From the IMG/VR virus record IMGVR_UViG_3300023296_000001: DNA of 55,212 nt; one strand, written 5' to 3'. The position numbers and the translations under genes were made by a program. This document shows positions 1 through 55,212 of the stretch, one piece after another. Each line of letters opens with the position of its first letter. The stretch's first letter is position 1. The notes under the pieces were generated by a model. That model was not told the DNA's origin. It saw only the letters and a list, made by a program, of their open reading frames with translations, and made no database searches. Origin of the DNA: a virus.

Positions 1-127
1 TAAAATATTAACATTAACCATTTTTCTTATTAGCCATTCTTTATTGTTATGAGGGATATGTTCTAACTGTAAAAACTCAACCATCGTCATATTAAAATCA
101 GGATAATACTTGACTAAGTTTTCGTAC
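1..127. repeat. Contig-end overlap (circularisation signature): 1-127 identical to 55086-55212
   Basis: Read directly: both ends carry the same 127-nt string. A third copy lies at 53874-54000 inside array copy A. Confidence 0.9.
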
Positions 128-180: not shown

Positions 181-546
181 CTATTCCACCTCTTCTTTTA
201 ATGCCATAATCGCTGCGTATGCGGCTCGGGCTGCGGCTTCTGATGCGCTCTTGTACCAACCATCTTCAAATACATGACAATCTATATTTACCAATGAAAC
301 CCAGTATCGCTCGTCTTTAACTGACATATCTATCTTTATTTCAATACATACCCCCAGCTTTTCAAAAACTGGGATTTGTGCGTCTAGTGAGGTGGTGTAA
401 ATACCGTTCTTTATTAACTCAATATCTTGTCCATAACCTTTGGCAAATTCCATCACTTGTGAAGGTATCCATGTGTGATTGGAATATATTCTGTAGCCCA
501 TAAACTCAGCTATCCCACGGTTAATTTCTTCGTTTGTTGGTTTCAT
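181..546 (-). CDS. Hypothetical protein (121 aa), C-terminus ...AARAAYAAIMALKEEVE
   Basis: ORF with ATGA overlap to the upstream gene. Its last 23 nt are identical to the 3' ends of array copies B and C. Confidence 0.6.
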   Translation of the reverse strand: MKPTNEEINRGIAEFMGYRIYSNHTWIPSQVMEFAKGYGQDIELIKNGIYTTSLDAQIPVFEKLGVCIEIKIDMSVKDERYWVSLVNIDCHVFEDGWYKSASEAAARAAYAAIMALKEEVE

Positions 547-860
547 TCTTTCACCTTTGTTAATGTTTCTTCTACCTTTAAATAAGTTCTTTCATGTAAA
601 TGTAAACCGTCTTCCATTACTCCATTCAAAGCCTCAACACACACCGCAAGTTTTAAAATACTGCCCATAAGCAATGTTGCACATTCTGCAACGGCTGCAG
701 CTTTATCCAACTCGTGATCTATTTCTTCTTCTTGGCTTTGCATATATTCACATGCTGCCATCCAACCTTGATTTGCTGATGAATACCAAGAGTAGTTAAT
801 CTCTTCTACTTCATTTATTTCCCAATCTTGAAACGCTTCTTCCCATTCTTCTTTACTCAT
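543..860 (-). CDS. Hypothetical acidic protein (105 aa)
   Basis: ORF translationally coupled on both sides. Its LAVCVEAL motif is also present in 52875-53456. Confidence 0.55.
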   Translation of the reverse strand: MSKEEWEEAFQDWEINEVEEINYSWYSSANQGWMAACEYMQSQEEEIDHELDKAAAVAECATLLMGSILKLAVCVEALNGVMEDGLHLHERTYLKVEETLTKVKE

Positions 861-3169: not shown

Positions 3170-3736
3170 CTAATATATCTCAACCACTTTATCCACTAAC
3201 CCCCATGCAACAGCTTCAGAAGCCGTCAGCACCCAATCTGCCTTCTCCACTTTATCCACTAACGCTTTTTTAGTAATTCTTTTTTTAACGATGATACTAT
3301 CACGGTAAATATCATAAATAAGCTCCTCTTGAATCTTATGAAGCCTTTCCCAAGCCTTCCTATTCAACCTGGAACCTTCAAAAGCTGCAGTACCCTCGTG
3401 CAACATCATATAAGAATTCACACTCATAAACCTTTCATCACCGGCTTGCATTATGACGCTTGCCATGCTGGAGACGCCGCCATAGCCTATAATTCTTACT
3501 GCATTTTTCATACTTTTAATTGCATCATAAATTGCCAAGCCATTATCTACACACCCACCATCTGAAGACAATAAAACTGTCACCATTCCGGTAGTTCCGT
3601 CTAGTATATGTAGGTTCGATACTATAGTATCCTTCATAAGCTCATCAATATCTCCAAAAATCTTAATAGTCTTAGTCGGTACATAAATATCATAAGCGTG
3701 AAAGTTTTCAATATTTGATGTTAATTTATCACTCAT
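3170..3736 (-). CDS. ClpP-family serine protease-like protein (188 aa)
   Basis: LSSDGGCVDNG, GGVSSMASVIMQAG (Ser), MMLHEG (His), AVAWGLVDKV (Asp) match the ClpP motif order. Confidence 0.75.
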   Translation of the reverse strand: MSDKLTSNIENFHAYDIYVPTKTIKIFGDIDELMKDTIVSNLHILDGTTGMVTVLLSSDGGCVDNGLAIYDAIKSMKNAVRIIGYGGVSSMASVIMQAGDERFMSVNSYMMLHEGTAAFEGSRLNRKAWERLHKIQEELIYDIYRDSIIVKKRITKKALVDKVEKADWVLTASEAVAWGLVDKVVEIY

Positions 3737-4290: not shown

Positions 4291-4539
4291 TTACCACTCC
4301 TCAATTGTAAAGTTATAATATCCTAGCGAATCCATTACTGCAATCGCCTCTTCTCTAGTATAATCCATTTCCCATAATAAGTCAACAAAAAACTCCTCCT
4401 GTATGTCGTCAATATTCCACGGTTTAGTAAGAGAATGATAATATTCCTTGAAATAATGCTCATCCCATTGAAGTTCTAGAATCTCCGCTGTCATGTTAAT
4501 GTTTTGTTGGCTTGAATTGATTGTTCTAATTGCATTCAT
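4291..4539 (-). CDS. Hypothetical protein (82 aa)
   Basis: ORF with ATGA overlap to 4536-5210. Confidence 0.55.
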   Translation of the reverse strand: MNAIRTINSSQQNINMTAEILELQWDEHYFKEYYHSLTKPWNIDDIQEEFFVDLLWEMDYTREEAIAVMDSLGYYNFTIEEW

Positions 4540-5210
4540 GATAATTTTCCTTTGTAGTAAATTGGTATTAATGTTTCTAATAAACTCATTACATTATTAT
4601 AATGTTTTTCGTCTAATCCCATTTTTAATGCATCTTCTAACCCTACTTCTAACCATTCAGTGTATAACATTTGCACACATCCTATCCGAATATGATAATC
4701 TGTAAAGGTTATGTTGTATTGGAAGTTTGACTGATTGTATATGCTTAAACATTCTATAGTTATTTCAGCTTCACCAGCCACCCAAGCTTCCCCAGCCACT
4801 CTAGCTTCACCAAACACCCTAGCTTCACCAAACACCCAAGCTTCACCAAACACCCTAGCTTTATCAAACACCCAAGCTTCATCAGCCACCCCAGCTTGAC
4901 CAGACACTCTAGCTTCCCCAAACACTCTAGCTTCACCAAACACTCTAGCTTTATCAGCCACCCAAGCTTTACCAGCCACCCTAGCTTCACCAGACACTCT
5001 AGCTTCCCCAAACACTCTAGCTTCACCAAACACTCTAGCTTTATCAGCCACCCAAGCTTCACCAACCTGCGATAAATTACTCTCCTTCTCTATAAAACCG
5101 CCCAAGTCTCCAGATTTAACGCTTCCAAAGTCCTTTAACGCTTTTATCCGGTATAAAGTTGTTCCAAAATGATCAATTGATTCAGTAGTTAGTTCGTATT
5201 TTTCATCCAT
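4536..5210 (-). CDS. Hexapeptide-repeat (left-handed beta-helix-like) protein, 224 aa
   Basis: 17 consecutive hexads of the type G-E-A-[RW]-V-[FSA] (residues about 50-151), flanked by non-repetitive N- and C-domains. Confidence 0.7.
   Translation of the reverse strand: MDEKYELTTESIDHFGTTLYRIKALKDFGSVKSGDLGGFIEKESNLSQVGEAWVADKARVFGEARVFGEARVSGEARVAGKAWVADKARVFGEARVFGEARVSGQAGVADEAWVFDKARVFGEAWVFGEARVFGEARVAGEAWVAGEAEITIECLSIYNQSNFQYNITFTDYHIRIGCVQMLYTEWLEVGLEDALKMGLDEKHYNNVMSLLETLIPIYYKGKLS
4758..5063 (-). repeat. 18-bp tandem coding repeat with a 90-bp higher-order unit
   Basis: 4899-4969 is identical to 4989-5059. Many units contain AAGCTT. Confidence 0.9.
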
Positions 5211-15260: not shown

Positions 15261-15468
15261 TACAGCAGAAGAACTAAAAGAAGTAATAAAGGAAGAAATA
15301 CTTCCAACCGAGCAGGACATTGAAATAGCCATGGCAGTCAAAAGCATCAAAGCCAAATGGAAGAAAACCCTAAAGCCAAAATCAAAAAGCGAGCTTATCG
15401 ACATTATCATACAACTAAGCATCGACGTATCAATACTCAAACAAGAGCTTTCAGAAGGAGAAGAATAA
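15247..15468 (+). CDS. Hypothetical protein (73 aa)
   Basis: ORF with TAATG coupling to 15468. Confidence 0.5.
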   Translation: MSQSSTAEELKEVIKEEILPTEQDIEIAMAVKSIKAKWKKTLKPKSKSELIDIIIQLSIDVSILKQELSEGEE

Positions 15469-16139
15469 TGAGAATCATGTTAATCCTAGCGCTTCTGACG
15501 ACTACCCTATTCGCGCGAGAAGTAAAACTTACAAAATCAAACCTAGTACACATTCGAGGACGCATCGACTTCACCTCCATGCAAAAAGCTCAACAAGACC
15601 TTCTAAAACAACACGTCAAACGCGGTAGCAAAGATTACACAATATATCTATTCATCGACTCACCAGGCGGTAGCATCTCAGCAGGAAACGCATTCATAGC
15701 ATATGCCAAAACCTTCAGAGACGTAAAAACCATCTGCATGTTCTGCGCCTCCATGGCTCATGCAATTTCTCAAGCCCTTCCAGGAGAACGCCTAGGCACC
15801 GACGGAAACATCATGATGGCTCACCGCGCCAAAGGAACCGTATCAGGTCAATTCAACGACGGTGAAATGGAAAGACGTTTAGCACTATGGAAACGCATCG
15901 TAACCAGAATGGAACAAACAAACGCAAACAGAATCGGAATCACATTAAAAGATTACCAAAAACGAGTTAAAGATGAGTACTGGACTCACGGAGTAGATTC
16001 AGTAGTTCAAAACGTACTAGACGACATAGCAACCGTCTCATGCTCTGACAAACTAATGACCTCCAGCAGAACAGAAAAAATAAGATCAATATTCGGAGAA
16101 AGAATAATAGTGATTCCACTATGCCCACTAATGATTTAA
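15468..16139 (+). CDS. ClpP/S49-like serine protease with N-terminal signal-peptide-like segment (223 aa)
   Basis: Start moved to ATG 15468 (AAGGAG upstream). MRIMLILALLTTTLFA, then IDSPGGSISAG, CASMAHAI (Ser), MMAHRAKG (His). Confidence 0.7.
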   Translation: MRIMLILALLTTTLFAREVKLTKSNLVHIRGRIDFTSMQKAQQDLLKQHVKRGSKDYTIYLFIDSPGGSISAGNAFIAYAKTFRDVKTICMFCASMAHAISQALPGERLGTDGNIMMAHRAKGTVSGQFNDGEMERRLALWKRIVTRMEQTNANRIGITLKDYQKRVKDEYWTHGVDSVVQNVLDDIATVSCSDKLMTSSRTEKIRSIFGERIIVIPLCPLMI

Positions 16140-28867: not shown

Positions 28868-30151
28868 ATGGGACTCGGAAGCTTCGTAAAAAGCGGATTA
28901 GGGATGGCAGCAGGATTAGATCCAACTGGAATAACAGGAGGTCTTATAGGCGGTATTGGAGACATTGCACAAGGTACAGCAACTTTCAAAGGCGCTACTA
29001 GAAAGATAGACAAAGACGCTTTTAAAATCGGAGGATCTGATAAAAGACAAAAACAAAACGCTAATCAAATTAGACGTGGCGATATTATGGAACGCCAAGC
29101 CGATAAGGAATTGCGAAAATCCAGAAAATTTGGAGAACAGTCCAGAAACGGTCAATCAAGTCTTATAAAAGATCTTCAACGACAATCAGCAGGTAAAGGT
29201 CCATCATTAGCAGAAGCTCAGATGAAACGAGCAGGAGATCGAGGATTAGCGCAACAACTAGCAGCAGCAGCAGCTCAACGTGGTGGTAATCAAGCCTCAT
29301 TACAGCGCTCACTAGCTAGAGGACAACAAGCTCAATCAGCAGATATAGCACAGCAAGCAGGTCAAGCTAGAATACAAGAGCAATTATCAGCTAGACAACA
29401 ATTAGCCGGAGCATTACAGCAGCGACGTGGTCAAGATGCTCAATTATTGGATCAGAACCAACAACTATATGGAGCAGGAGTAGCAAGACAACAACAAGGA
29501 ATTAAACAAGGTCAAGCTATGTCACAAGCGTCACAACAACAGCAAGCAAACCTACAAGGTATGGAAACAGATCAATTCCTAGCAGCTCAAGGTTTAACAG
29601 GCGCAGGAGCTATGCAAGGTAAGCAATTGCAGTCAGATATGATCGGCGGAATAATGTCAGCGGTTTCAGATGAAAAAGCAAAAAAGAGCATTAAAAGCCA
29701 CTCAGGAAATGAAGATAAAAAACCTTCTGACGGTTCTAAATTCGCAAAAGATTTAGGAGCAGGTATGAAAAAAAGCGGCGGAAAAGATTATACACAATCA
29801 GGTAAATCATTATTTGCAGAAAAATCAGCAAATGTAAAAAGTTACTCAGATGAAAAAGTAAAAGAATCTAAAAAATCCGAAGGACCAAAAGAGTTCCTAG
29901 ACGCATTAAAAGCATACTCATATGAATACAAAGATAGTCACAAAAATCTACCAGGAGCTGGAGAAGGGCGTCACATGTCAGTAATGGCACAAGACCTTGA
30001 GAAAGCAGGATCAGTTGGGAAGTCAATGGTACAAGACACACCAGACGGAAAAATAGTCGACTACGGAAAAGGATTCGGTGCAATATTAGCAGCACAAGCA
30101 CACCTAAACGAAAGACTTTCAGAAATAGAATCTAAAAAGAAAAAGGATTAG
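28868..30151 (+). CDS. Gly/Gln-rich virion protein with C-terminal peptidase S74 (intramolecular chaperone) domain
   Basis: SDEKVKESKK...LDALKAYSYEYK...HMSVMAQDLEKAG...VDYGKGFGAILAAQAHLNERLSEIE follows the S74 consensus order. Confidence 0.7.
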   Translation: MGLGSFVKSGLGMAAGLDPTGITGGLIGGIGDIAQGTATFKGATRKIDKDAFKIGGSDKRQKQNANQIRRGDIMERQADKELRKSRKFGEQSRNGQSSLIKDLQRQSAGKGPSLAEAQMKRAGDRGLAQQLAAAAAQRGGNQASLQRSLARGQQAQSADIAQQAGQARIQEQLSARQQLAGALQQRRGQDAQLLDQNQQLYGAGVARQQQGIKQGQAMSQASQQQQANLQGMETDQFLAAQGLTGAGAMQGKQLQSDMIGGIMSAVSDEKAKKSIKSHSGNEDKKPSDGSKFAKDLGAGMKKSGGKDYTQSGKSLFAEKSANVKSYSDEKVKESKKSEGPKEFLDALKAYSYEYKDSHKNLPGAGEGRHMSVMAQDLEKAGSVGKSMVQDTPDGKIVDYGKGFGAILAAQAHLNERLSEIESKKKKD

Positions 30152-38372: not shown

Positions 38373-40331
38373 ATTTCTTACATTGGACAGAGACCTAAAG
38401 TAAAATCAATTCATTACGAACCGCAATCTACAATACCTATAAATCCAGTAGAGGGTCAAACCTACAGAAGCGACGGAACCGCATCAGCTAAAGGCTTATA
38501 CGAGTACCGAGACTCTACATGGCAAGAATTAGGCGGTAGCGGCGGCGGTATTAACTACTGCGACAACCCAAACGCTGAATCAGGCACCACCGGCTGGGCA
38601 ACATATGCTGATACTGCAGGCACAAAACCAGTAGACGGTACCGGCGGCTCCCCAACTATTACATGGGCTCAAAACACATCAACACCTATGCGTGGAGCTG
38701 CAGATTTTAAATTTGCAAAAGACGCCGCAGACAGACAAGGTGAAGGAGTTTCTTTTGATTATACAATCGACGAAGCCGATAAAGGCAGTCCTATTTATAT
38801 TAAATTCGATTACAACTGCGACGATTCTGACTATGCAGACGGCGATGTTATTATATACATCTACGATAAAGACGCTACATCTCTTAAAGAACCAGTAGGT
38901 ATCGAAGTTCAAGCCGGAAAAGGTAATCACTTTGCAACATACCAACCAGACAATAACACATCTGACGACTTTAGATTTGTCATACATCAATCAAGCACTA
39001 ACGCAGCAGCATATGATCTATTCTTTGAAAACTTCAAAATTGGTCCAGTTAGTGAAATTTCACAACCAAGTGTAGCAGCTATTAGTGATTGGAAAGATTA
39101 CAATCCTAATCTGTTAAATTTTGCACTAGACACAGGAGATGGCAATTATAGATCACAATACAGAAGAGTTGGGGATTCTGTTGATATTCGAATATATGGC
39201 AGCATCGAAACAAACCCTACAGGGATTATTGGGTTTACCCTGCCTGACGGACTATCAATGGTTGATAGAATATCATCGAGGGATGTTTATGGTGTTGCTA
39301 AAGGGTTTGATGGAGGTTCAAATACTCACTTAGGAATGGTGTCTAGTGGCGGCGCTACTACTTTTAATGTGACAGGGGATGATGGCACGGCACATTGGAA
39401 TGCAACAACTCCCTTTACGTGGTCGGCAGGATTTGATTACTTTTCAGTAAACGTTTACGGTATTCCAATTCAAGGTTGGAGCTCAGGCTCACAAGACGTT
39501 GCGGTTGTGGATGATAATAGAATTGTAGCAATGTCTGCCGATAGCTATGCTGGTGCAGCAATATCAAATACCGCTGAAGGAGATCTAACTTTTACAACTA
39601 GCTCAGAGACACATTCTAATTTTGCAACTGGCACAGGTATTTATACAATAGGTACATCTGGTTGGTATCAAGTCTCAGCTAACACTGGGCTGCAAGTATC
39701 TAGTCCTGCAGCAGGGAATAAAGGGCAACTCCTTTTATACAAAAATGGATCAACATTATTATGCGAATGTCAGCAAGAAGCAGAATCAGCATCGACTAAT
39801 ACTTTCTTTTCACATCACGTAAGTATATCAGCAGTTTACTTATTAAAAGGTGAAACATTAAAAACCAGCTACGTTAATAATTGGGGAGAAAGTGTGTCAC
39901 TCCAAGGTAATGCTAGAACTAATTTTAGTGTAAGCAAAATATCAGGACAAAACCAAATCATTGCAGCTGAAACTATAGTAGCACGAGCAAGCGGTAACGC
40001 AGCTAGTGCAGCTTCAGGAGCTCCGGTTATTTTTCCAACTAGCGACTTTGACAGTCACGGCGGTTATAATGTTTCAACAGGATTCTACACTACTCAAGTT
40101 TCTGGAACTTACAGAGTTTCAGGATATGTTACATCAGCAAACGCAGCTATAACATTAAACATAGCTAAAGACGGAGCAACCGACATAGCTGGAGGTATTA
40201 CAGACGCTTCAGGTGAAGGAACTTTTACAGGATTAATTAAATGCAACGCTAATCAAACTATATCATTAGAACCTAGTGGAACTTTAGATATTTCAGGCGG
40301 ACATATGAGCATTGAAAGAGTAGGAAATTAA
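38373..40331 (+). CDS. Tail fibre / receptor-binding protein (about 652 aa if initiated at ATT 38373; minimal form from ATG 38688)
   Basis: The frame is open from the TAA at 38355 with protein-like sequence (IPINPVEGQTYRSDG...LYEYRDSTWQEL). There is no ATG/GTG/TTG/CTG before 38688. AAGGAG lies 6 nt upstream of ATT. Confidence 0.5.
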   Translation: MSYIGQRPKVKSIHYEPQSTIPINPVEGQTYRSDGTASAKGLYEYRDSTWQELGGSGGGINYCDNPNAESGTTGWATYADTAGTKPVDGTGGSPTITWAQNTSTPMRGAADFKFAKDAADRQGEGVSFDYTIDEADKGSPIYIKFDYNCDDSDYADGDVIIYIYDKDATSLKEPVGIEVQAGKGNHFATYQPDNNTSDDFRFVIHQSSTNAAAYDLFFENFKIGPVSEISQPSVAAISDWKDYNPNLLNFALDTGDGNYRSQYRRVGDSVDIRIYGSIETNPTGIIGFTLPDGLSMVDRISSRDVYGVAKGFDGGSNTHLGMVSSGGATTFNVTGDDGTAHWNATTPFTWSAGFDYFSVNVYGIPIQGWSSGSQDVAVVDDNRIVAMSADSYAGAAISNTAEGDLTFTTSSETHSNFATGTGIYTIGTSGWYQVSANTGLQVSSPAAGNKGQLLLYKNGSTLLCECQQEAESASTNTFFSHHVSISAVYLLKGETLKTSYVNNWGESVSLQGNARTNFSVSKISGQNQIIAAETIVARASGNAASAASGAPVIFPTSDFDSHGGYNVSTGFYTTQVSGTYRVSGYVTSANAAITLNIAKDGATDIAGGITDASGEGTFTGLIKCNANQTISLEPSGTLDISGGHMSIERVGN

Positions 40332-52563: not shown

Positions 52564-52740
52564 TTACTCCTTTGGTGGATCCAACCTACCTAATAATTTC
52601 TTTAGTTTAAAATCTACTACATATATTTTACACTTATCACTTGTACGCCTCAAATTCTGCAACATTTCATTCACCTGTAATAGTTTATCCAGTTTCCACT
52701 TAAGCATTCCATCTGGTAAATTTTTTGTCTTTTTCGTCAT
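52564..52740 (-). CDS. Hypothetical protein (58 aa from ATG 52740; a 104-aa form from ATG 52878 is possible)
   Basis: GCGGAGATTAACATG start context, with a promoter-like element about 30 nt upstream. Confidence 0.45.
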   Translation of the reverse strand: MTKKTKNLPDGMLKWKLDKLLQVNEMLQNLRRTSDKCKIYVVDFKLKKLLGRLDPPKE

Positions 52741-52771
52741 GTTAATCTCCGCGCCACTAATGCCTTCTAAC

Positions 52772-52800
52772 ATTGTATCATAGCTCTTATAACTTGTCAA
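52772..52800 (-). promoter_or_regulatory. Candidate sigma70-type promoter TTGACA-N17-TACAAT
   Basis: -35 at 52800-52795, -10 at 52777-52772. Confidence 0.5.
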
Positions 52801-52874
52801 GCGTAAAACCCAACATATATTATTAATAATAAACCAAAACGGTATCAAAATAAAACACGCTAATCTAAGTAACA

Positions 52875-53456
52875 TCATTTCTTCCCACCCCGAACCTTCG
52901 CTAATGTTTCTTTTGCACATTTGGACATAATATCTTTGGTATTTATTTCTACTATGCATGCGTTATTGTCTTCTAATATTTCTATGTCGTAATTTTCTAT
53001 ATCTGCATAAAACTCCAAAGCCTCGACACAAACCGCAAGTTCGGCTTCCTGCTTTTTTAGATATTTTATTAAATCGCTATGAGATTTTGGTGAGCAGTAT
53101 ATATGATCGCTTGGGCACATACATTCTATTATATAGATTTTGTCGTTGGTGTAGTCTTTGCCCATAGAACCCCACTCCGATTGCTCACTCATCTTTGCCC
53201 CCGATACATGCATAAACTGCATTTGTTTATATTCATCTTGAACCTCTTCAGTAAAAGTATCTTCATCCCAAGAGATCCCCACGTCATCTTCATCATGAAC
53301 ACTCATTGTGCCTGTTGCTGGACATGATTTACATTTAATAGGATCACCATCCCATACCCAACCTTCTTTCGCTTCCGAGTCGGTGTAAACTTCTATCCTT
53401 GAGTAACCACAACAAGCACATTCATCAGGGTATTTTCTCCATATTTTCTTTTCCAT
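52875..53456 (-). CDS. Zinc-ribbon protein (193 aa)
   Basis: CACCGYS...CKSCPATG. The C-terminal LAVCVEAL block is shared with 543-860. Confidence 0.55.
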   Translation of the reverse strand: MEKKIWRKYPDECACCGYSRIEVYTDSEAKEGWVWDGDPIKCKSCPATGTMSVHDEDDVGISWDEDTFTEEVQDEYKQMQFMHVSGAKMSEQSEWGSMGKDYTNDKIYIIECMCPSDHIYCSPKSHSDLIKYLKKQEAELAVCVEALEFYADIENYDIEILEDNNACIVEINTKDIMSKCAKETLAKVRGGKK

Positions 53457-54053
53457 CTACTCCCCCTCATCTTCTAATATACAAATTAGCAGCATAAAAT
53501 TAATGTTCCATTGGTCTTTTTCAGCATAAGTATAAGAAGCATTAGAAGCATCAGAAGCATCATAAGCATAAGCAGCGGAAGCATAAGCAGCAGCATCATA
53601 AGCATAAGCATCAGAAGTATAGGCAGCATCAGAAGTAGCAGAAGCAGCATAAGAAGCATCAGAAACAGCAGCAGCAGCATAAGAAGAAGCAGAAACAGAA
53701 ACAGCAACAACATAATCACAAGCACGTCTTTTTATTAATAATTCATCTAACGATATTAAGCCTAGTAAGAAATCTTTATTAGCTTTTAAGCACTCATTAA
53801 CCCTATTATCGTTAGGATATTTTTTATTGTAAATATGAGCAACTGACTTCGCACATTCTAATGACCACCATTTTAAAATATTAACATTAACCATTTTTCT
53901 TATTAGCCATTCTTTATTGTTATGAGGGATATGTTCTAACTGTAAAAACTCAACCATCGTCATATTAAAATCAGGATAATACTTGACTAAGTTTTCGTAC
54001 ACGCTTGTGTATGGGTCGAGTTTTTTAATATCTTCTAGTGTTATTTTGTTCAT
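53457..54053 (-). CDS. Array copy A (198 aa): conserved N-domain, Tyr/Ser/Ala/Asp tract, conserved C-tail
   Basis: See findings. Variable tract at 53529-53720. Confidence 0.7.
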   Translation of the reverse strand: MNKITLEDIKKLDPYTSVYENLVKYYPDFNMTMVEFLQLEHIPHNNKEWLIRKMVNVNILKWWSLECAKSVAHIYNKKYPNDNRVNECLKANKDFLLGLISLDELLIKRRACDYVVAVSVSASSYAAAAVSDASYAASATSDAAYTSDAYAYDAAAYASAAYAYDASDASNASYTYAEKDQWNINFMLLICILEDEGE

Positions 54054-54644
54054 CTATTCCACCTCTTCTTTTAATATACGAATTAGTAACATAAAATTAA
54101 TGTCCCATTGGTCTTTTTCAGCATAAGTATAAGAAGCATCAGAAACATCATAAGTAGCATAAGCAGCGGAAGCATAAGCAGAATAAGTAGTAGCATAAGC
54201 AATGGCATCAGAAGAATAAGCATCAACAGAAGTAGCATAAGCAGCGGAAGCATAAGCAGAATAAGCAGCATCATAAGCAGAAGCATCAGAAGCACCAACA
54301 GCAGCAGTAGCCGCACGTCTTTTTATTAATAATTCATCTAACGATATTAAGCCTAGTAAGAAATCTTTATTAGCTTTTAAGCACTCATTAACCCTATTAT
54401 CGTTAGGATATTTTTTATTGTAAATATGAGCAACTGACTTCGCACATTCTAGTGCCCACCATTTTAAAATATTACCATCAACCATTCTCCTTATTAGCCA
54501 CACTTTAGCTTTATGAGAGATGTGCTCTAACTCTAAAAACTCAACCATCGTCATATTAAAATCAGGATAATACTTAACTAAGTTTTCGTACCCACTTCTG
54601 CATGGGTCGAGTTTCTTAATATCTTTTAGTGTTATTTTGTTCAT
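54054..54644 (-). CDS. Array copy B (196 aa)
   Basis: Variable tract at 54126-54311. Its stop abuts the ATG of copy A. Confidence 0.7.
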   Translation of the reverse strand: MNKITLKDIKKLDPCRSGYENLVKYYPDFNMTMVEFLELEHISHKAKVWLIRRMVDGNILKWWALECAKSVAHIYNKKYPNDNRVNECLKANKDFLLGLISLDELLIKRRAATAAVGASDASAYDAAYSAYASAAYATSVDAYSSDAIAYATTYSAYASAAYATYDVSDASYTYAEKDQWDINFMLLIRILKEEVE

Positions 54645-55212
54645 CTATTCCACCTCTTCTTTTAATATACGAATTAGTAACATAAAATTAATGTCCCATT
54701 GCTCTTTTTTAGCATAAGCAGAATCATCATCATCATAAGCATAAGCATTAGCAGCATAAGAAGCAGTAGCATAAGAAGCATAAGCATAAGCAGTATAGGC
54801 AGCAGTAGCATAAGAATAAGCAGCATAAGCAGAAGCATCAGAAGCATAAGAAGCACCATCATCATCAGAAGCCGCAGCCGCAGCCGCAAAGGCAGCATCA
54901 ACATCATAAGAAGTAGAAGAGGCAGCAGTAGCCGCACGTCTTTTTATTAATAATTCATCTAACGATATTAAGCCTAGTAAGAAATCTTTATTAGCTTTTA
55001 AGCACTCATTAACCCTATTATCGTTAGGATATTTTTTATTGTAAATATGAGCAACTGACTTCGCACATTCTAATGACCACCATTTTAAAATATTAACATT
55101 AACCATTTTTCTTATTAGCCATTCTTTATTGTTATGAGGGATATGTTCTAACTGTAAAAACTCAACCATCGTCATATTAAAATCAGGATAATACTTGACT
55201 AAGTTTTCGTAC
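54645..55212 (-). CDS. Array copy C, 3' part (full length about 206 aa when joined to 180-128 through the junction)
   Basis: Variable tract at 54717-54932. The frame is open to the contig end. Confidence 0.7.
   Translation of the reverse strand, partial: YENLVKYYPDFNMTMVEFLQLEHIPHNNKEWLIRKMVNVNILKWWSLECAKSVAHIYNKKYPNDNRVNECLKANKDFLLGLISLDELLIKRRAATAASSTSYDVDAAFAAAAAASDDDGASYASDASAYAAYSYATAAYTAYAYASYATASYAANAYAYDDDDSAYAKKEQWDINFMLLIRILKEEVE

What the first reader, a model, noticed from the sequence alone, without database searches (positions are those of the whole stretch)
53457..55212. Three tandem paralogues whose central tract is almost pure Tyr/Ser/Ala/Asp written in (KMT)n codons
Three head-to-tail minus-strand genes make up the array: 53457-54053, 54054-54644, and 54645-55212 continuing into 180-1.

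- They share a ~110-aa N-domain (MNKITL.DIKKL.P...ECAKSVAHIYNKKYPNDNRVNECLKANKDFLLGLISLDELLIKRRA) and a 23-aa tail (YA[EK]K[DE]QW[ND]INFMLLI...).
- The 64, 62 and 72 codons in between (53529-53720, 54126-54311, 54717-54932) differ in length and cannot be aligned.
- By my count from the translations, these tracts are more than 80% Ala/Ser/Tyr/Asp.
- On the coding strand nearly every codon is GCT, TCT, TAT or GAT, so the plus strand reads as A-K-M triplets (agc ata aga atc). In copy B, 59 of 62 codons end in T.
- Because of this composition all frames on both strands stay open, which explains the spurious Leu/Met-rich and Ser/Ile/Arg-rich ORFs in the track.
- The flanks are nearly identical between copies. 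Copy C is a mosaic: its first ~53 nt match B, the next ~277 nt (54936-55212) are identical to A (53724-54000), and its 3' tail matches B. This points to ongoing recombination or gene conversion.
- The junction ...KEEVE-TAG-ATG, with the SD GAGGTGG inside the preceding gene's last codons, precedes copies B and A. The same 23 nt also end the unrelated gene 181-546, just before copy C.

Tyr/Ser/Ala/Asp encoded by a KMT codon is the minimal alphabet known to be sufficient for synthetic antibody binding sites. I hypothesise a diversified binding or decoy surface used in host takeover or anti-defence. The alternative is a slippage-prone disordered linker. I cannot assign the family.
Basis: partly seen in the sequence, partly recalled or inferred. 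Interest (0 to 1): 0.85.

Follow-up and report, generated by a model that had tools for sequence, protein, structure and literature searches.

The report
Tandem phage Imm5-like genes, alanine-repeat insert
Three side-by-side phage genes belong to a known but uncharacterised family of putative toxin-immunity proteins (Pfam Imm5_like) whose members routinely carry this alanine/tyrosine-rich, single-codon repeat tract, so the odd "four-letter code" is a family trait made by repeat turnover rather than a new diversity system.

Summary
Three head-to-tail minus-strand paralogues (A, B, C) each carry a 62-72 codon tract that is 82-88% Ala/Ser/Tyr/Asp. Of its codons, 94% end in T, against 40% expected from this genome's codon usage (z=16). 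An independent contig confirms the three-copy array and the mosaic copy C.

The family can be assigned. All three copies hit Pfam PF21805 (Imm5_like) above threshold, and the match runs through the tract. In relatives the same design is normal: conserved helical N-domain, Ala-rich tract of 15-117 residues, conserved C-terminal helix (111 of 149 cluster representatives). The tract's Ala is usually written in one codon (median 93%; GCT or GCC), so the K-M-T pattern is GCT plus changes at codon positions 1 and 2.

Close relatives show one to three copies, crossover hybrids, tract chimeras and in-frame indels. Yet tract A is 100% identical across four contigs, so it is not hypervariable.

The best fold match is SsdAI, the immunity protein of a DNA deaminase toxin, but the match is weak.

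My reading is a mobile "polyimmunity"-type cassette of inhibitor proteins. Function is inferred only. This is a new member of a known kind, of moderate to low interest.

The parts
53457..54053 (-). Copy A, Imm5_like paralogue (198 aa).
   Evidence: ORF. PF21805 E=8.9e-9 and PF14423 E=5.2e-6, both above the gathering score. The same tract and tail occur in four contigs.
54054..54644 (-). Copy B, Imm5_like paralogue (196 aa).
   Evidence: ORF. PF21805 E=2.9e-10. AlphaFold2 mean pLDDT 78.5, pTM 0.79, all-alpha. Best PDB fold match is 7jtu_B.
54645..55085 (-). Copy C, 3' part (codons 61-206). 55086-55212 repeats window 1-127.
   Evidence: The whole 206-aa protein (P0005) is contiguous in the independent contig L004.
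1..180 (-). Copy C, 5' part (codons 1-60), joined across the circular junction.
53529..53720 (-). Tract A: 64 codons, 84% Ala/Ser/Tyr/Asp, 97% T-ending codons.
   Evidence: Identical at 192/192 nt in L003.
54126..54311 (-). Tract B: 62 codons, 82% Ala/Ser/Tyr/Asp, 95% T-ending codons.
   Evidence: Identical in L088. No single-strand DNA hairpin potential.
54717..54932 (-). Tract C: 72 codons, 88% Ala/Ser/Tyr/Asp, 92% T-ending codons.
   Evidence: Length variants occur in L086, P0002 and P0181.
53457..53528 (-). C-terminal amphipathic tail helix of A (YAEKDQWNINFMLLICILEDEGE), matching the family motif Q-x-D-L-N-L-x-L-L-I.
   Evidence: pLDDT is 82-96 for the equivalent helix in C and about 90 in B.
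54054..54125 (-). Tail helix of B. Its last 22 nt (54054-54075) are the shared junction with a Shine-Dalgarno-like GAGGTGG before the ATG of A.
54645..54716 (-). Tail helix of C. Its last 22 nt (54645-54666) are the shared junction before the ATG of B.
181..546 (-). Orphan 121-aa gene that travels with the array. Its last 22 nt (181-202) are the same junction sequence before the ATG of C.
   Evidence: The cassette (window about 569 to the array) is shared at about 97% nt identity with otherwise unrelated phage contigs L078, L079 and L087. Only 2 protein clusters were found among 5.8 billion sequences.
53722..54000 (-). 279-nt block of A identical to C (54934-55212, equivalent to 127-1 plus 55085-54934): a gene-conversion or recent-duplication tract.

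Best explanation
**What it is**
- The array is three paralogues of a phage-borne Imm5_like (Pfam PF21805) all-alpha protein.
- It sits in the early/replication gene block of a roughly 55-kb podovirus-like phage.

**Protein architecture (shown or predicted)**
- A conserved helical core of about 110 residues comes first.
- A C-terminal amphipathic helix follows the tract.
- Between them lies a low-complexity Ala-rich insert of variable length. It is predicted helical, with breaks at Ser/Asp-rich spots.

**How the tract is written and changes**
- Shown: it is a degenerate, in-frame GCT-based repeat.
- Shown: the other residues use codons one or two changes from GCT at positions 1 and 2 (TCT, GAT, TAT, ACT, GTT), with the third T kept. 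This produces the K-M-T look.
- Inferred from comparing alleles: it changes by misalignment between short repeats, by recombination between paralogous tracts and by single-base changes.
- Shown: unequal crossing-over in the identical 3' half of the N-domain changes copy number and shuffles N-domains against tracts.

**What it does (inferred by homology only)**
- Each copy is a stoichiometric protein inhibitor of the "immunity" type. It would bind and block a toxin or effector met in the host, for example a nucleic-acid deaminase or nuclease domain.
- The three diverged copies would act like a small polyimmunity locus that widens the range of targets.
- The array, together with the upstream orphan gene 181-546, moves between unrelated phages as a cassette (shown).
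For: **Family and architecture**
- PF21805 scores are above the gathering threshold for all three copies. The aligned stretch, residues 60-172, includes the tract.
- 28 homologues from the first search (P0002-P0029), and then 111 of 149 cluster representatives, share N-domain, Ala-rich tract and tail.
- AlphaFold2 gives an all-alpha model. The core has pLDDT 90-98 and the tail helix 82-96.

**Fold match**
- The best PDB fold match in both models is 7jtu_B. For model B: E=0.014, probability 1.00, TM 0.49/0.50 over 196 columns.
- 7jtu_B is SsdAI, the all-helical immunity protein bound to the single-strand DNA deaminase toxin SsdA (PMC7901873).
- Zhang et al. 2012 list Imm5 as immunity to DYW-type deaminases and CdiA-CT, and as frequent in polyimmunity loci that lack toxin genes (PMC3482391).

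**Codon-level evidence**
- The T-ending codon excess has z=16.
- 9NA gp10 and Sergei gp17 tracts use GCT for every Ala, with 94-97% T-ending codons against 40% in the rest of the gene.
- In 42 distinct viral tracts, the top Ala codon takes a median 93% share, against 27% for that codon in the same gene's N-domain. Non-Ala codons share its third base 72% of the time against 28%.

**Dynamics among close relatives**
- L003 has two copies.
- L086 carries a hybrid gene with B's N-domain (1 mismatch in 333) and A's tract and tail (0 mismatches in 264).
- The tract of P0181 is C nt 1-160 joined to A nt 167-287.
- Indels of 1, about 5 and 28 codons occur, all in frame.
- Substitutions between close alleles are S/A and S/Y.
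- These points rest.

**Mobility and recurrence**
- The cassette is shared at about 97% identity with otherwise unrelated contigs.
- Tandem paralogues also occur in other viral loci, L005 and L006/L007.
Against: - No toxin gene or deaminase domain was found in the window. The 20 ORFs scanned against Pfam (all 16 of 260 aa or more, plus four shorter ones) and the flanking genes gave none.
- There are no hits in the defence-system library or in NCBIfam.
- The match to SsdAI is by fold only and is weak. It falls to E=1.6 over 94 columns with the second model.
- No sequence search links the family to 7JTU.
- No member of PF21805 has been studied experimentally, as far as the held literature shows.
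- The tract has pLDDT 35-48 in the deep-alignment model, so an ordered helical arm is not established.
- Tyr spacing shows no single helical periodicity.
- The preference for GCT or GCC over GCA or GCG also holds in Trp/Arg-type tracts, so the rule of changes at codon positions 1 and 2 from GCT does not explain everything.
Confidence: 0.55

Rival explanations
1. The tract would be a deliberately diversified binding or decoy surface built from a minimal Tyr/Ser/Ala/Asp alphabet, comparable to four-amino-acid synthetic antibody libraries. It would be used in host takeover or anti-defence and kept variable by selection.
For: - The composition is 82-88% Ala/Ser/Tyr/Asp.
- Tyr needs two changes from GCT yet makes up 16-18% of the tract. 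The transversion-derived residues Tyr, Ser and Asp outnumber the transition-derived Thr and Val, which points to selection on residue identity.
- Each paralogue has its own tract.
- Chimeric tracts exist in relatives.
- The family name suggests a protein-binding role.
Against: - Tract A is invariant across four contigs, 264/264 nt, while its N-domain varies. Tract B is identical in L088.
- The same kind of tract is ordinary across hundreds of family clusters. It also occurs on an unrelated N-domain in Caulobacter phage Cr30.
- No reverse transcriptase or template repeat was found.
- The K-M-T pattern follows from single-codon GCT ancestry.
- Tyr may equally be the buried residue that holds Ala-rich helices together.
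Confidence: 0.15
2. The tract is a functionally neutral spacer, disordered or loosely helical and prone to slippage, between two functional elements (the core and the tail helix). Its composition would reflect mutational drift of a trinucleotide repeat, not function.
For: - pLDDT is 35-48 across the tract with a 150-sequence alignment.
- Tract length ranges from 15 to 117 residues in the family.
- The tracts are degenerate repeats with periods that are multiples of 3.
- Single-codon usage implies turnover faster than synonymous drift.
- There is no consistent Tyr periodicity.
Against: - The tract is retained in 111 of 149 cluster representatives, with a consistent non-Ala palette of Tyr, then Asp, then Ser.
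- The Pfam profile aligns through it.
- Non-repetitive cellular Imm5 relatives, L081 and L082, have ordinary Ala/His-rich sequence at the equivalent position.
- Helices are predicted in all models, with breaks at Ser/Asp-rich spots.
- Specific tract alleles are conserved exactly between phages.
Confidence: 0.22
3. The three-copy array and mosaic copy C are assembly artefacts of a repeat that the assembler resolved wrongly. The contig ends lie inside the repeat.
For: - The 127-nt terminal overlap lies inside the 279-nt block that is identical between A and C.
- Several MEGAHIT contigs of related phages break inside the array.
Against: - The independent contig L004 (54,962 bp, a different record) carries upstream gene, C, B, A and downstream gene without a break, at 99.9% identity.
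- Each copy has a unique tract, so reads spanning tract to N-domain to tail can order them.
- Proteins A, B and C each recur as exact sequences in 1-3 contigs.
Confidence: 0.04

Closest known systems
Pfam PF21805 Imm5_like and PF14423 Imm5: putative immunity proteins of polymorphic toxin systems (Zhang et al. 2012, PMC3482391)
   Same: - HMM matches are above threshold.
- The proteins are mostly alpha-helical.
- The core motif A-x-x-C-A-x-x-V ... Y-P-N-D-x-R is conserved.
- They occur as tandem paralogues without a toxin gene, as in polyimmunity loci.
   Different: - These copies are phage-borne, in an early/replication module.
- No adjacent toxin is present.
- The tract is poorer in Ala (37-42%) and richer in Ser/Tyr/Asp than the family average (A 59%).
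- Copy C scores below the PF14423 cut-off.
SsdAI, immunity protein of the type VI secretion DNA deaminase toxin SsdA (PDB 7JTU chain B; PMC7901873)
   Same: - It is the best PDB fold match for both models.
- It has a similar length (193 aa) and is all-helical.
- It belongs to the toxin class (DYW-type deaminase) that Zhang et al. pair with Imm5.
   Different: - There is no detectable sequence similarity.
- TM is only about 0.5, and the match is weaker for copy C.
- Whether SsdAI has a comparable Ala-rich region could not be checked here.
Salmonella phage 9NA gp10, Sergei gp17 and Vibrio phage 2.044.O gp26: unannotated phage proteins
   Same: - The N-terminal subdomain is homologous (hhalign probability 97.6%).
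- They have the same Ala/Tyr/Asp tract, written almost only in GCT/TAT/GAT, of different lengths in close relatives (102 residues against 50).
- They lie in early-gene positions.
   Different: - The Pfam models miss them.
- They are single-copy.
- Their tracts are plainer (AAY/DAA units) and contain Arg.
Simple-sequence contingency loci and trinucleotide-repeat tracts
   Same: - The tract is repeat-based.
- Length varies between close relatives.
- Single-codon usage implies repeat turnover.
   Different: - The repeats are degenerate (62-85% matches).
- Every change seen is in frame, so there is no on/off switching.
- There is no hairpin potential.
- Some alleles are perfectly stable between phages.
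Four-amino-acid (Tyr/Ser/Ala/Asp, KMT codon) synthetic antibody libraries. This comparison rests on my own knowledge, not on a test here.
   Same: The same four residues and the same degenerate codon class.
   Different: - In the libraries the alphabet is imposed on loops of a fixed scaffold.
- Here it arises from a GCT repeat, lies in predicted helices and is Ala-dominated.
- This is a resemblance only.

Membership tests
Pfam PF21805 Imm5_like | Profile HMM score above the curated gathering threshold (25 bits). | tested here: met
   A scores 35.8 bits, B 40.5 and C 33.0. Precomputed PF21805 hits are recorded for most homologues.
Pfam PF21805 Imm5_like | Shared architecture: helical core with the Y-P-N-D-x-R motif, an Ala-rich region and a C-terminal amphipathic helix. 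| tested here: met
   Alignments A1, A3 and A5 have near-invariant C15, W49, A68 and P80. 111 of 149 representatives have the tract, and the tail motif is conserved.
Pfam PF21805 Imm5_like | All-alpha fold. | tested here: met
   AlphaFold2 models of B and C contain only helices apart from two 2-residue bridge elements. Core pLDDT is 90-98.
Imm5 (PF14423) immunity proteins of polymorphic toxin systems | Profile HMM score above the gathering threshold (25 bits). | tested here: inconclusive
   A scores 27.2 and B 31.9, both passing. C scores 22.2 and fails.
Imm5 (PF14423) immunity proteins of polymorphic toxin systems | Encoded next to a cognate toxin gene (DYW-type deaminase or CdiA-CT), or within a polyimmunity locus. 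| tested here: not met
   No toxin domain was found in the neighbours or in the 20 ORFs scanned against Pfam. The tandem-paralogue layout does resemble toxin-less polyimmunity loci.
Imm5 (PF14423) immunity proteins of polymorphic toxin systems | Binds and neutralises a toxin. | not testable with these tools
   This needs co-expression rescue or binding assays.
Imm5 (PF14423) immunity proteins of polymorphic toxin systems | Fold similar to a solved immunity protein of a DYW-type deaminase (SsdAI, 7JTU_B). | tested here: inconclusive
   It is the top hit for both models. Values are E=0.014 and TM 0.5 for B, and E=1.6 over 94 columns for C.
Diversity-generating retroelement variable region | Nearby reverse transcriptase and a template repeat, with differences confined to adenine positions and equal lengths. 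| tested here: not met
   None of the 16 ORFs of 260 aa or more matches a reverse transcriptase. The tracts differ in length (64, 62 and 72 codons). Allelic changes are G/T at codon position 1, C/A at position 2, and indels.
Simple-sequence contingency (phase-variable) locus | Near-perfect short tandem repeat whose length changes shift the reading frame. | tested here: not met
   The repeats are degenerate (62-85% matches). All observed length differences are multiples of three.
CRISPR array (as annotated on the homologous tract of Vibrio phage 2.044.O) | Non-coding repeat-spacer array. | tested here: not met
   The tract lies inside a conserved ORF with homologous flanks.

The most novel reading that the evidence does not exclude
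The Ala-rich insert would be an evolvability device. It would be a GCY-based in-frame repeat that lets a phage-borne family of inhibitor proteins quickly change the length and Tyr/Asp/Ser decoration of a helical binding arm. Repeat misalignment and tract-to-tract recombination within tandem arrays would drive the change, retargeting host toxins or defence effectors without any dedicated diversifying enzyme.
Probability: 0.15. Interest if true: 0.6.

Novelty: new member of a known kind. Interest (0 to 1): 0.33.

Why it matters
**What the finding reduces to**
- As first written, the finding suggested a natural counterpart of minimal-alphabet antibody libraries.
- The evidence reduces it to something more ordinary: a phage copy of an already curated protein family whose odd tract is typical of that family.

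**What remains of interest**
- The family is large. 677 clusters at 50% identity match the N-domain alone.
- It is common in phages and mobile between unrelated phage genomes.
- It has never been studied experimentally, as far as the held literature shows.
- Its link to deaminase-toxin immunity proteins gives a concrete, testable idea of what these early phage genes do.
- The family-wide single-codon Ala tract is a clean example of how repeat turnover can shape a protein's amino-acid alphabet.
- It is also a practical warning. Such tracts break assemblies and have been annotated as CRISPR spacers or as mere tandem repeats.

Tried and rejected
- **Genome codon bias as the cause of T-ending codons.** Rejected: 80 expected, 187 observed.
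- **CTG/CAG-type hairpin slippage.** Not supported. Tract B folded as single-stranded DNA has a minimum free energy of only -5.2 and -5.7 kcal/mol on the two strands, no better than shuffles.
- **Diversity-generating retroelement.** Rejected: no reverse transcriptase, unequal lengths and the wrong substitution pattern.
- **A packaged head-protein (MuF)-toxin fusion or deaminase toxin in the same phage, with the array as its immunity.** Nothing was found in the 20 ORFs scanned against Pfam.
- **Sequence link to a solved structure.** None was found with the single protein, the family profile or a cellular Imm5 relative.
- **NCBIfam and the PADLOC defence-system library.** No hits.
- **Literature on PF21805 and on the tract motifs.** Nothing relevant.
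- **Cellular homologues and their neighbourhoods.** I listed the ORFs around two of them, L081 and L082. Both genes are non-repetitive Imm5-type, and none of their neighbours was searched against a domain library, so nothing can be said about adjacent toxins.
- **The upstream cassette gene 181-546.** It is an orphan and uninformative.
- **Regular heptad periodicity of Tyr.** Not found.
- **Tool failures.** The first attempts at search for related loci with the broad alignment failed for lack of a conserved stretch.
Full report
**1. What is in the sequence**

The minus strand carries three head-to-tail ORFs:
- A, 53457-54053, 198 aa.
- B, 54054-54644, 196 aa.
- C, 54645-55085 joined to 180-1, 206 aa.

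The window is a circularly closed contig. Bases 1-127 are repeated exactly at 55086-55212, and this is the only terminal overlap. The overlap lies inside a block that is identical between A and C, so I checked the assembly against other records. An independent contig (L004, 54,962 bp, another JGI record) carries the end of the upstream gene, then C, B, A and the downstream gene. It does so without interruption, at 99.9% identity over 2601 nt. The array and the mosaic copy C are therefore not artefacts of the window's ends.

**2.

- The three central tracts are 84%, 82% and 88% Ala/Ser/Tyr/Asp.
- 77-81% of their codons are of the K-M-T type, and 92-97% end in T.
- This is not genome codon usage. 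In the rest of the genome GCT is 36% of Ala codons, TCT 22% of Ser, TAT 62% and GAT 56%.
- Given the tract's amino acids, 80 ± 6.7 T-ending codons are expected and 187 of 198 are seen, z = 16.
- The mosaic structure of C is as described. Nt 54-332 are identical to A, nt 1-53 match B with one mismatch, and the tail is B-like.
- A 22-nt junction, ATTAAAAGAAGAGGTGGAATAG, precedes all three start codons.
- Tandem Repeats Finder sees the tracts as degenerate repeats whose periods are all multiples of three.

**3. Family assignment**

- All three proteins match Pfam PF21805 (Imm5_like, "Imm-5 like putative immunity protein") above its curated threshold. PF14423 (Imm5) is the second hit.
- The aligned stretch, residues 60-172, runs through the tract.
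- PHROG matches are to families of unknown function.
- A word-indexed search of 5.8 billion proteins found 29 proteins at E ≤ 0.001, one of them copy B itself.
- An exhaustive search with the N-domain alone found 677 clusters at 50% identity with E ≤ 0.001, and 145 with E ≤ 1e-10.
- Nearly all relatives have the same plan: a helical N-domain with near-invariant Cys15, Trp49 and the Y-P-N-D-x-R motif, then an Ala-rich tract, then a conserved amphipathic tail of the type Q-x-D-L-N-L-S-L-L-I-A-L-L.
- 111 of 149 representatives have a tract of at least 15 residues. The range is 15-117, the median 39, and the pooled composition is A 59%, Y 10%, D 6%, S 5%.

The N-domain maps to a known family in which such tracts are ordinary. 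The window's tracts are only unusual in being poorer in Ala and richer in Ser/Tyr/Asp than average.

**4. Where the K-M-T code comes from**

- The tract DNA found weak matches in cultured phages.
- In Salmonella phage 9NA gp10 every one of 69 tract Ala codons is GCT. Sergei gp17 is essentially (GCT GCT TAT)n. T-ending codons are 94-97% in these tracts against 40% in the rest of the same genes.
- I then examined 42 distinct tracts from 73 viral loci. The commonest Ala codon takes a median 93% share, against 27% for that codon in the same gene's N-domain. It is GCT in 25 tracts, GCC in 15, and GCA or GCG in one each.
- Non-Ala codons share its third base 72% of the time, against 28% in the N-domain.
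- In the window, 69 codons are GCT, 88 are one change away and 41 are two away. Position 1 is G or T and position 2 is C or A in most, and position 3 is T in 94%.

The simplest reading is this. The tract descends from, and keeps being rebuilt from, a GCT-type repeat. Residues other than Ala arise by changes at the first two codon positions. The T is inherited rather than selected codon by codon.

Two further points qualify this reading:
- Tyr needs two changes yet is frequent, and Tyr/Ser/Asp outnumber the transition-derived Thr/Val. Residue identity is therefore under selection.
- I cannot explain why the dominant codon is almost always pyrimidine-ending (GCT or GCC), even in Trp/Arg-type tracts. 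Hairpin-driven slippage is not supported.

**5. How the locus changes**

Close relatives, 93-99% identical in the flanks, show several kinds of change:
- A two-copy array in L003.
- A single copy in a different phage backbone, L078.
- A gene in L086 whose N-domain is B's (1 mismatch in 333) and whose tract and tail are A's (0 in 264). This is the expected product of unequal crossing-over in the identical 3' half of the N-domain.
- A tract in P0181 that is C for its first 160 nt and A from nt 167 to 287.
- In-frame indels of 1, about 5 and 28 codons, and S/A and S/Y substitutions between near-identical alleles.

Against the idea of a hypervariable surface, tract A with its tail is identical in four contigs whose N-domains differ by about 5%. 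Tract B is identical in L088. Variation is therefore episodic and recombinational, not continuous.

The array and the upstream orphan gene 181-546 are shared at about 97% identity with contigs that otherwise have no similarity to the window. The unit thus behaves as a mobile accessory cassette.

**6. Structure**

| AlphaFold2 model | Alignment | Mean pLDDT | pTM | Core | Tract | Tail helix |
|---|---|---|---|---|---|---|
| Copy B | 30 sequences | 78.5 | 0.79 | about 90 | helices 102-117, 121-138, 145-165 at pLDDT 45-72 | about 90 |
| Copy C | 150 sequences | 77.9 | 0.70 | 90-98 | still helical, only 35-48 | 82-96 |

- Helix breaks in B fall at Ser/Asp-rich spots.
- I infer that the tract is an excursion between two well-defined elements of one domain. 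Whether the tract is an ordered helical arm or a loose helix-prone linker is unresolved.
- Foldseek against the PDB ranks 7jtu_B first for both models. For B the values are E=0.014, probability 1.00 and TM 0.49/0.50 over 196 columns. For C they are E=1.6 over 94 columns.
- That chain is SsdAI, the all-helical immunity protein that plugs the active site of the type VI secretion single-strand DNA deaminase SsdA (PMC7901873).
- Zhang et al. 2012 pair Imm5 with DYW-type deaminases and CdiA-CT. They note Imm5 among the domains common in polyimmunity proteins and loci, which usually lack toxin genes (PMC3482391).
- No sequence-level link to 7JTU could be made.

**7. Context**

- The window encodes a P22/SU10-like portal, an SU10-like capsid protein and a terminase.
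- It also encodes a family A DNA polymerase (best match 38% identity, to Flavobacterium phages), a class II ribonucleotide reductase, a DUF5906 primase-helicase, a PD-(D/E)XK nuclease and two ClpP-like proteins. ORF 2081-2503, called a dUTPase in passing, was named from its translation alone and not scanned.
- The array lies in the long leftward early/replication block.
- No toxin, deaminase or reverse transcriptase was found among the 20 ORFs scanned against Pfam, which include all 16 of 260 aa or more.
- There were no hits in NCBIfam or PADLOC.

**8. Verdict**

- The identity of the genes and the origin of the codon pattern are well supported. These are Imm5_like paralogues with a family-typical GCT-repeat insert, evolving by unequal crossing-over, tract recombination and in-frame indels. 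I put this at about 0.9.
- The function rests on family annotation, a modest fold match and the parallel with tandem immunity arrays. The proposal is stoichiometric immunity-type inhibitors of a toxin or effector, with the array widening the target range. I put this at about 0.35-0.4. It is an inference, not a finding.
- The rivals that remain are a neutral helix-prone spacer and a genuinely selected variable binding surface. Experiments on a cultivable relative (9NA gp10) could separate them.
- This is a new member of a known kind. The striking alphabet is explained, and what remains interesting is the unknown function of a large, mobile, phage-borne family.

Noticed in passing
window 1-127 and 55086-55212: There is an exact 127-nt terminal direct repeat, the only one. 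It looks like the k-mer overlap of a circularly closed de Bruijn contig, so the true unit is 55,085 bp. The overlap lies inside the 279-nt block that is identical between A and C.
   Followed up: yes
window 181-569 plus the array; L078 1-970, L079 3613-4748, L087 2612-3924: The orphan 121-aa gene 181-546 and the Imm5-like copies are shared at about 97% nucleotide identity with phage contigs that otherwise have no similarity to the window. One of these contigs has an N6/N4 methyltransferase upstream, and another has a metallophosphatase and terminase downstream. The unit is a mobile cassette. The 121-aa protein has only two clusters among 5.8 billion proteins.
   Followed up: partly
L084 1157-1663 (Vibrio phage 2.044.O, MG592661) and L002 2501-2627 (Salmonella phage Sergei, KY002061): The public records annotate the homologous coding tract as "CRISPR spacer 1/2" in the Vibrio phage and as "direct tandem repeat region" in Sergei. 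Both lie inside the ORF of a family member.
   Followed up: yes
L085 9-719 (Caulobacter phage Cr30, first gene): The same Ala/Tyr/Asp tract, with 51 of 61 Ala codons GCT, sits on an N-domain that is not homologous to this family (hhalign probability 1.3%). It is followed by a longer C-terminal region. The tract type is therefore not confined to PF21805.
   Followed up: partly
L086 and L088 (MEGAHIT contigs of related phages), contig ends: Contigs of about 54.5 kb from several ENA assemblies end inside the array, within a copy's N-domain. The repeat evidently breaks short-read assemblies, so copy number in those records cannot be read.
   Followed up: partly
window 3170-3736 (-) and 15357-16139 (+): There are two separate ClpP-like protease genes in one 55-kb phage genome. 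One is in the early leftward block. The other lies just upstream of the terminase and may be a prohead protease.
   Followed up: no
window 52894-53003 and L079 2792-2901: An isolated 110-nt patch is 97% identical to a contig that is otherwise unrelated outside the cassette. It lies at the boundary of genes 52875-53456 and 52564-52959. It may be a recombination junction.
   Followed up: no
window 4536-5210 (-), 38688-40331 (+), 28868-30151 (+): Three domain hits: a YdcK-type beta-solenoid repeat protein in the early block; a C1q-like domain at the C-terminus of a 547-aa likely tail fibre; and an endosialidase-chaperone (Peptidase_S74) domain on a 427-aa protein.
   Followed up: no
L005 (three ORFs) and L006/L007 629-1849: Other viral contigs also carry two or three Imm5-like paralogues, adjacent in L006/L007. 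Some have short, mixed-codon tracts. Tandem amplification recurs in the family.
   Followed up: partly
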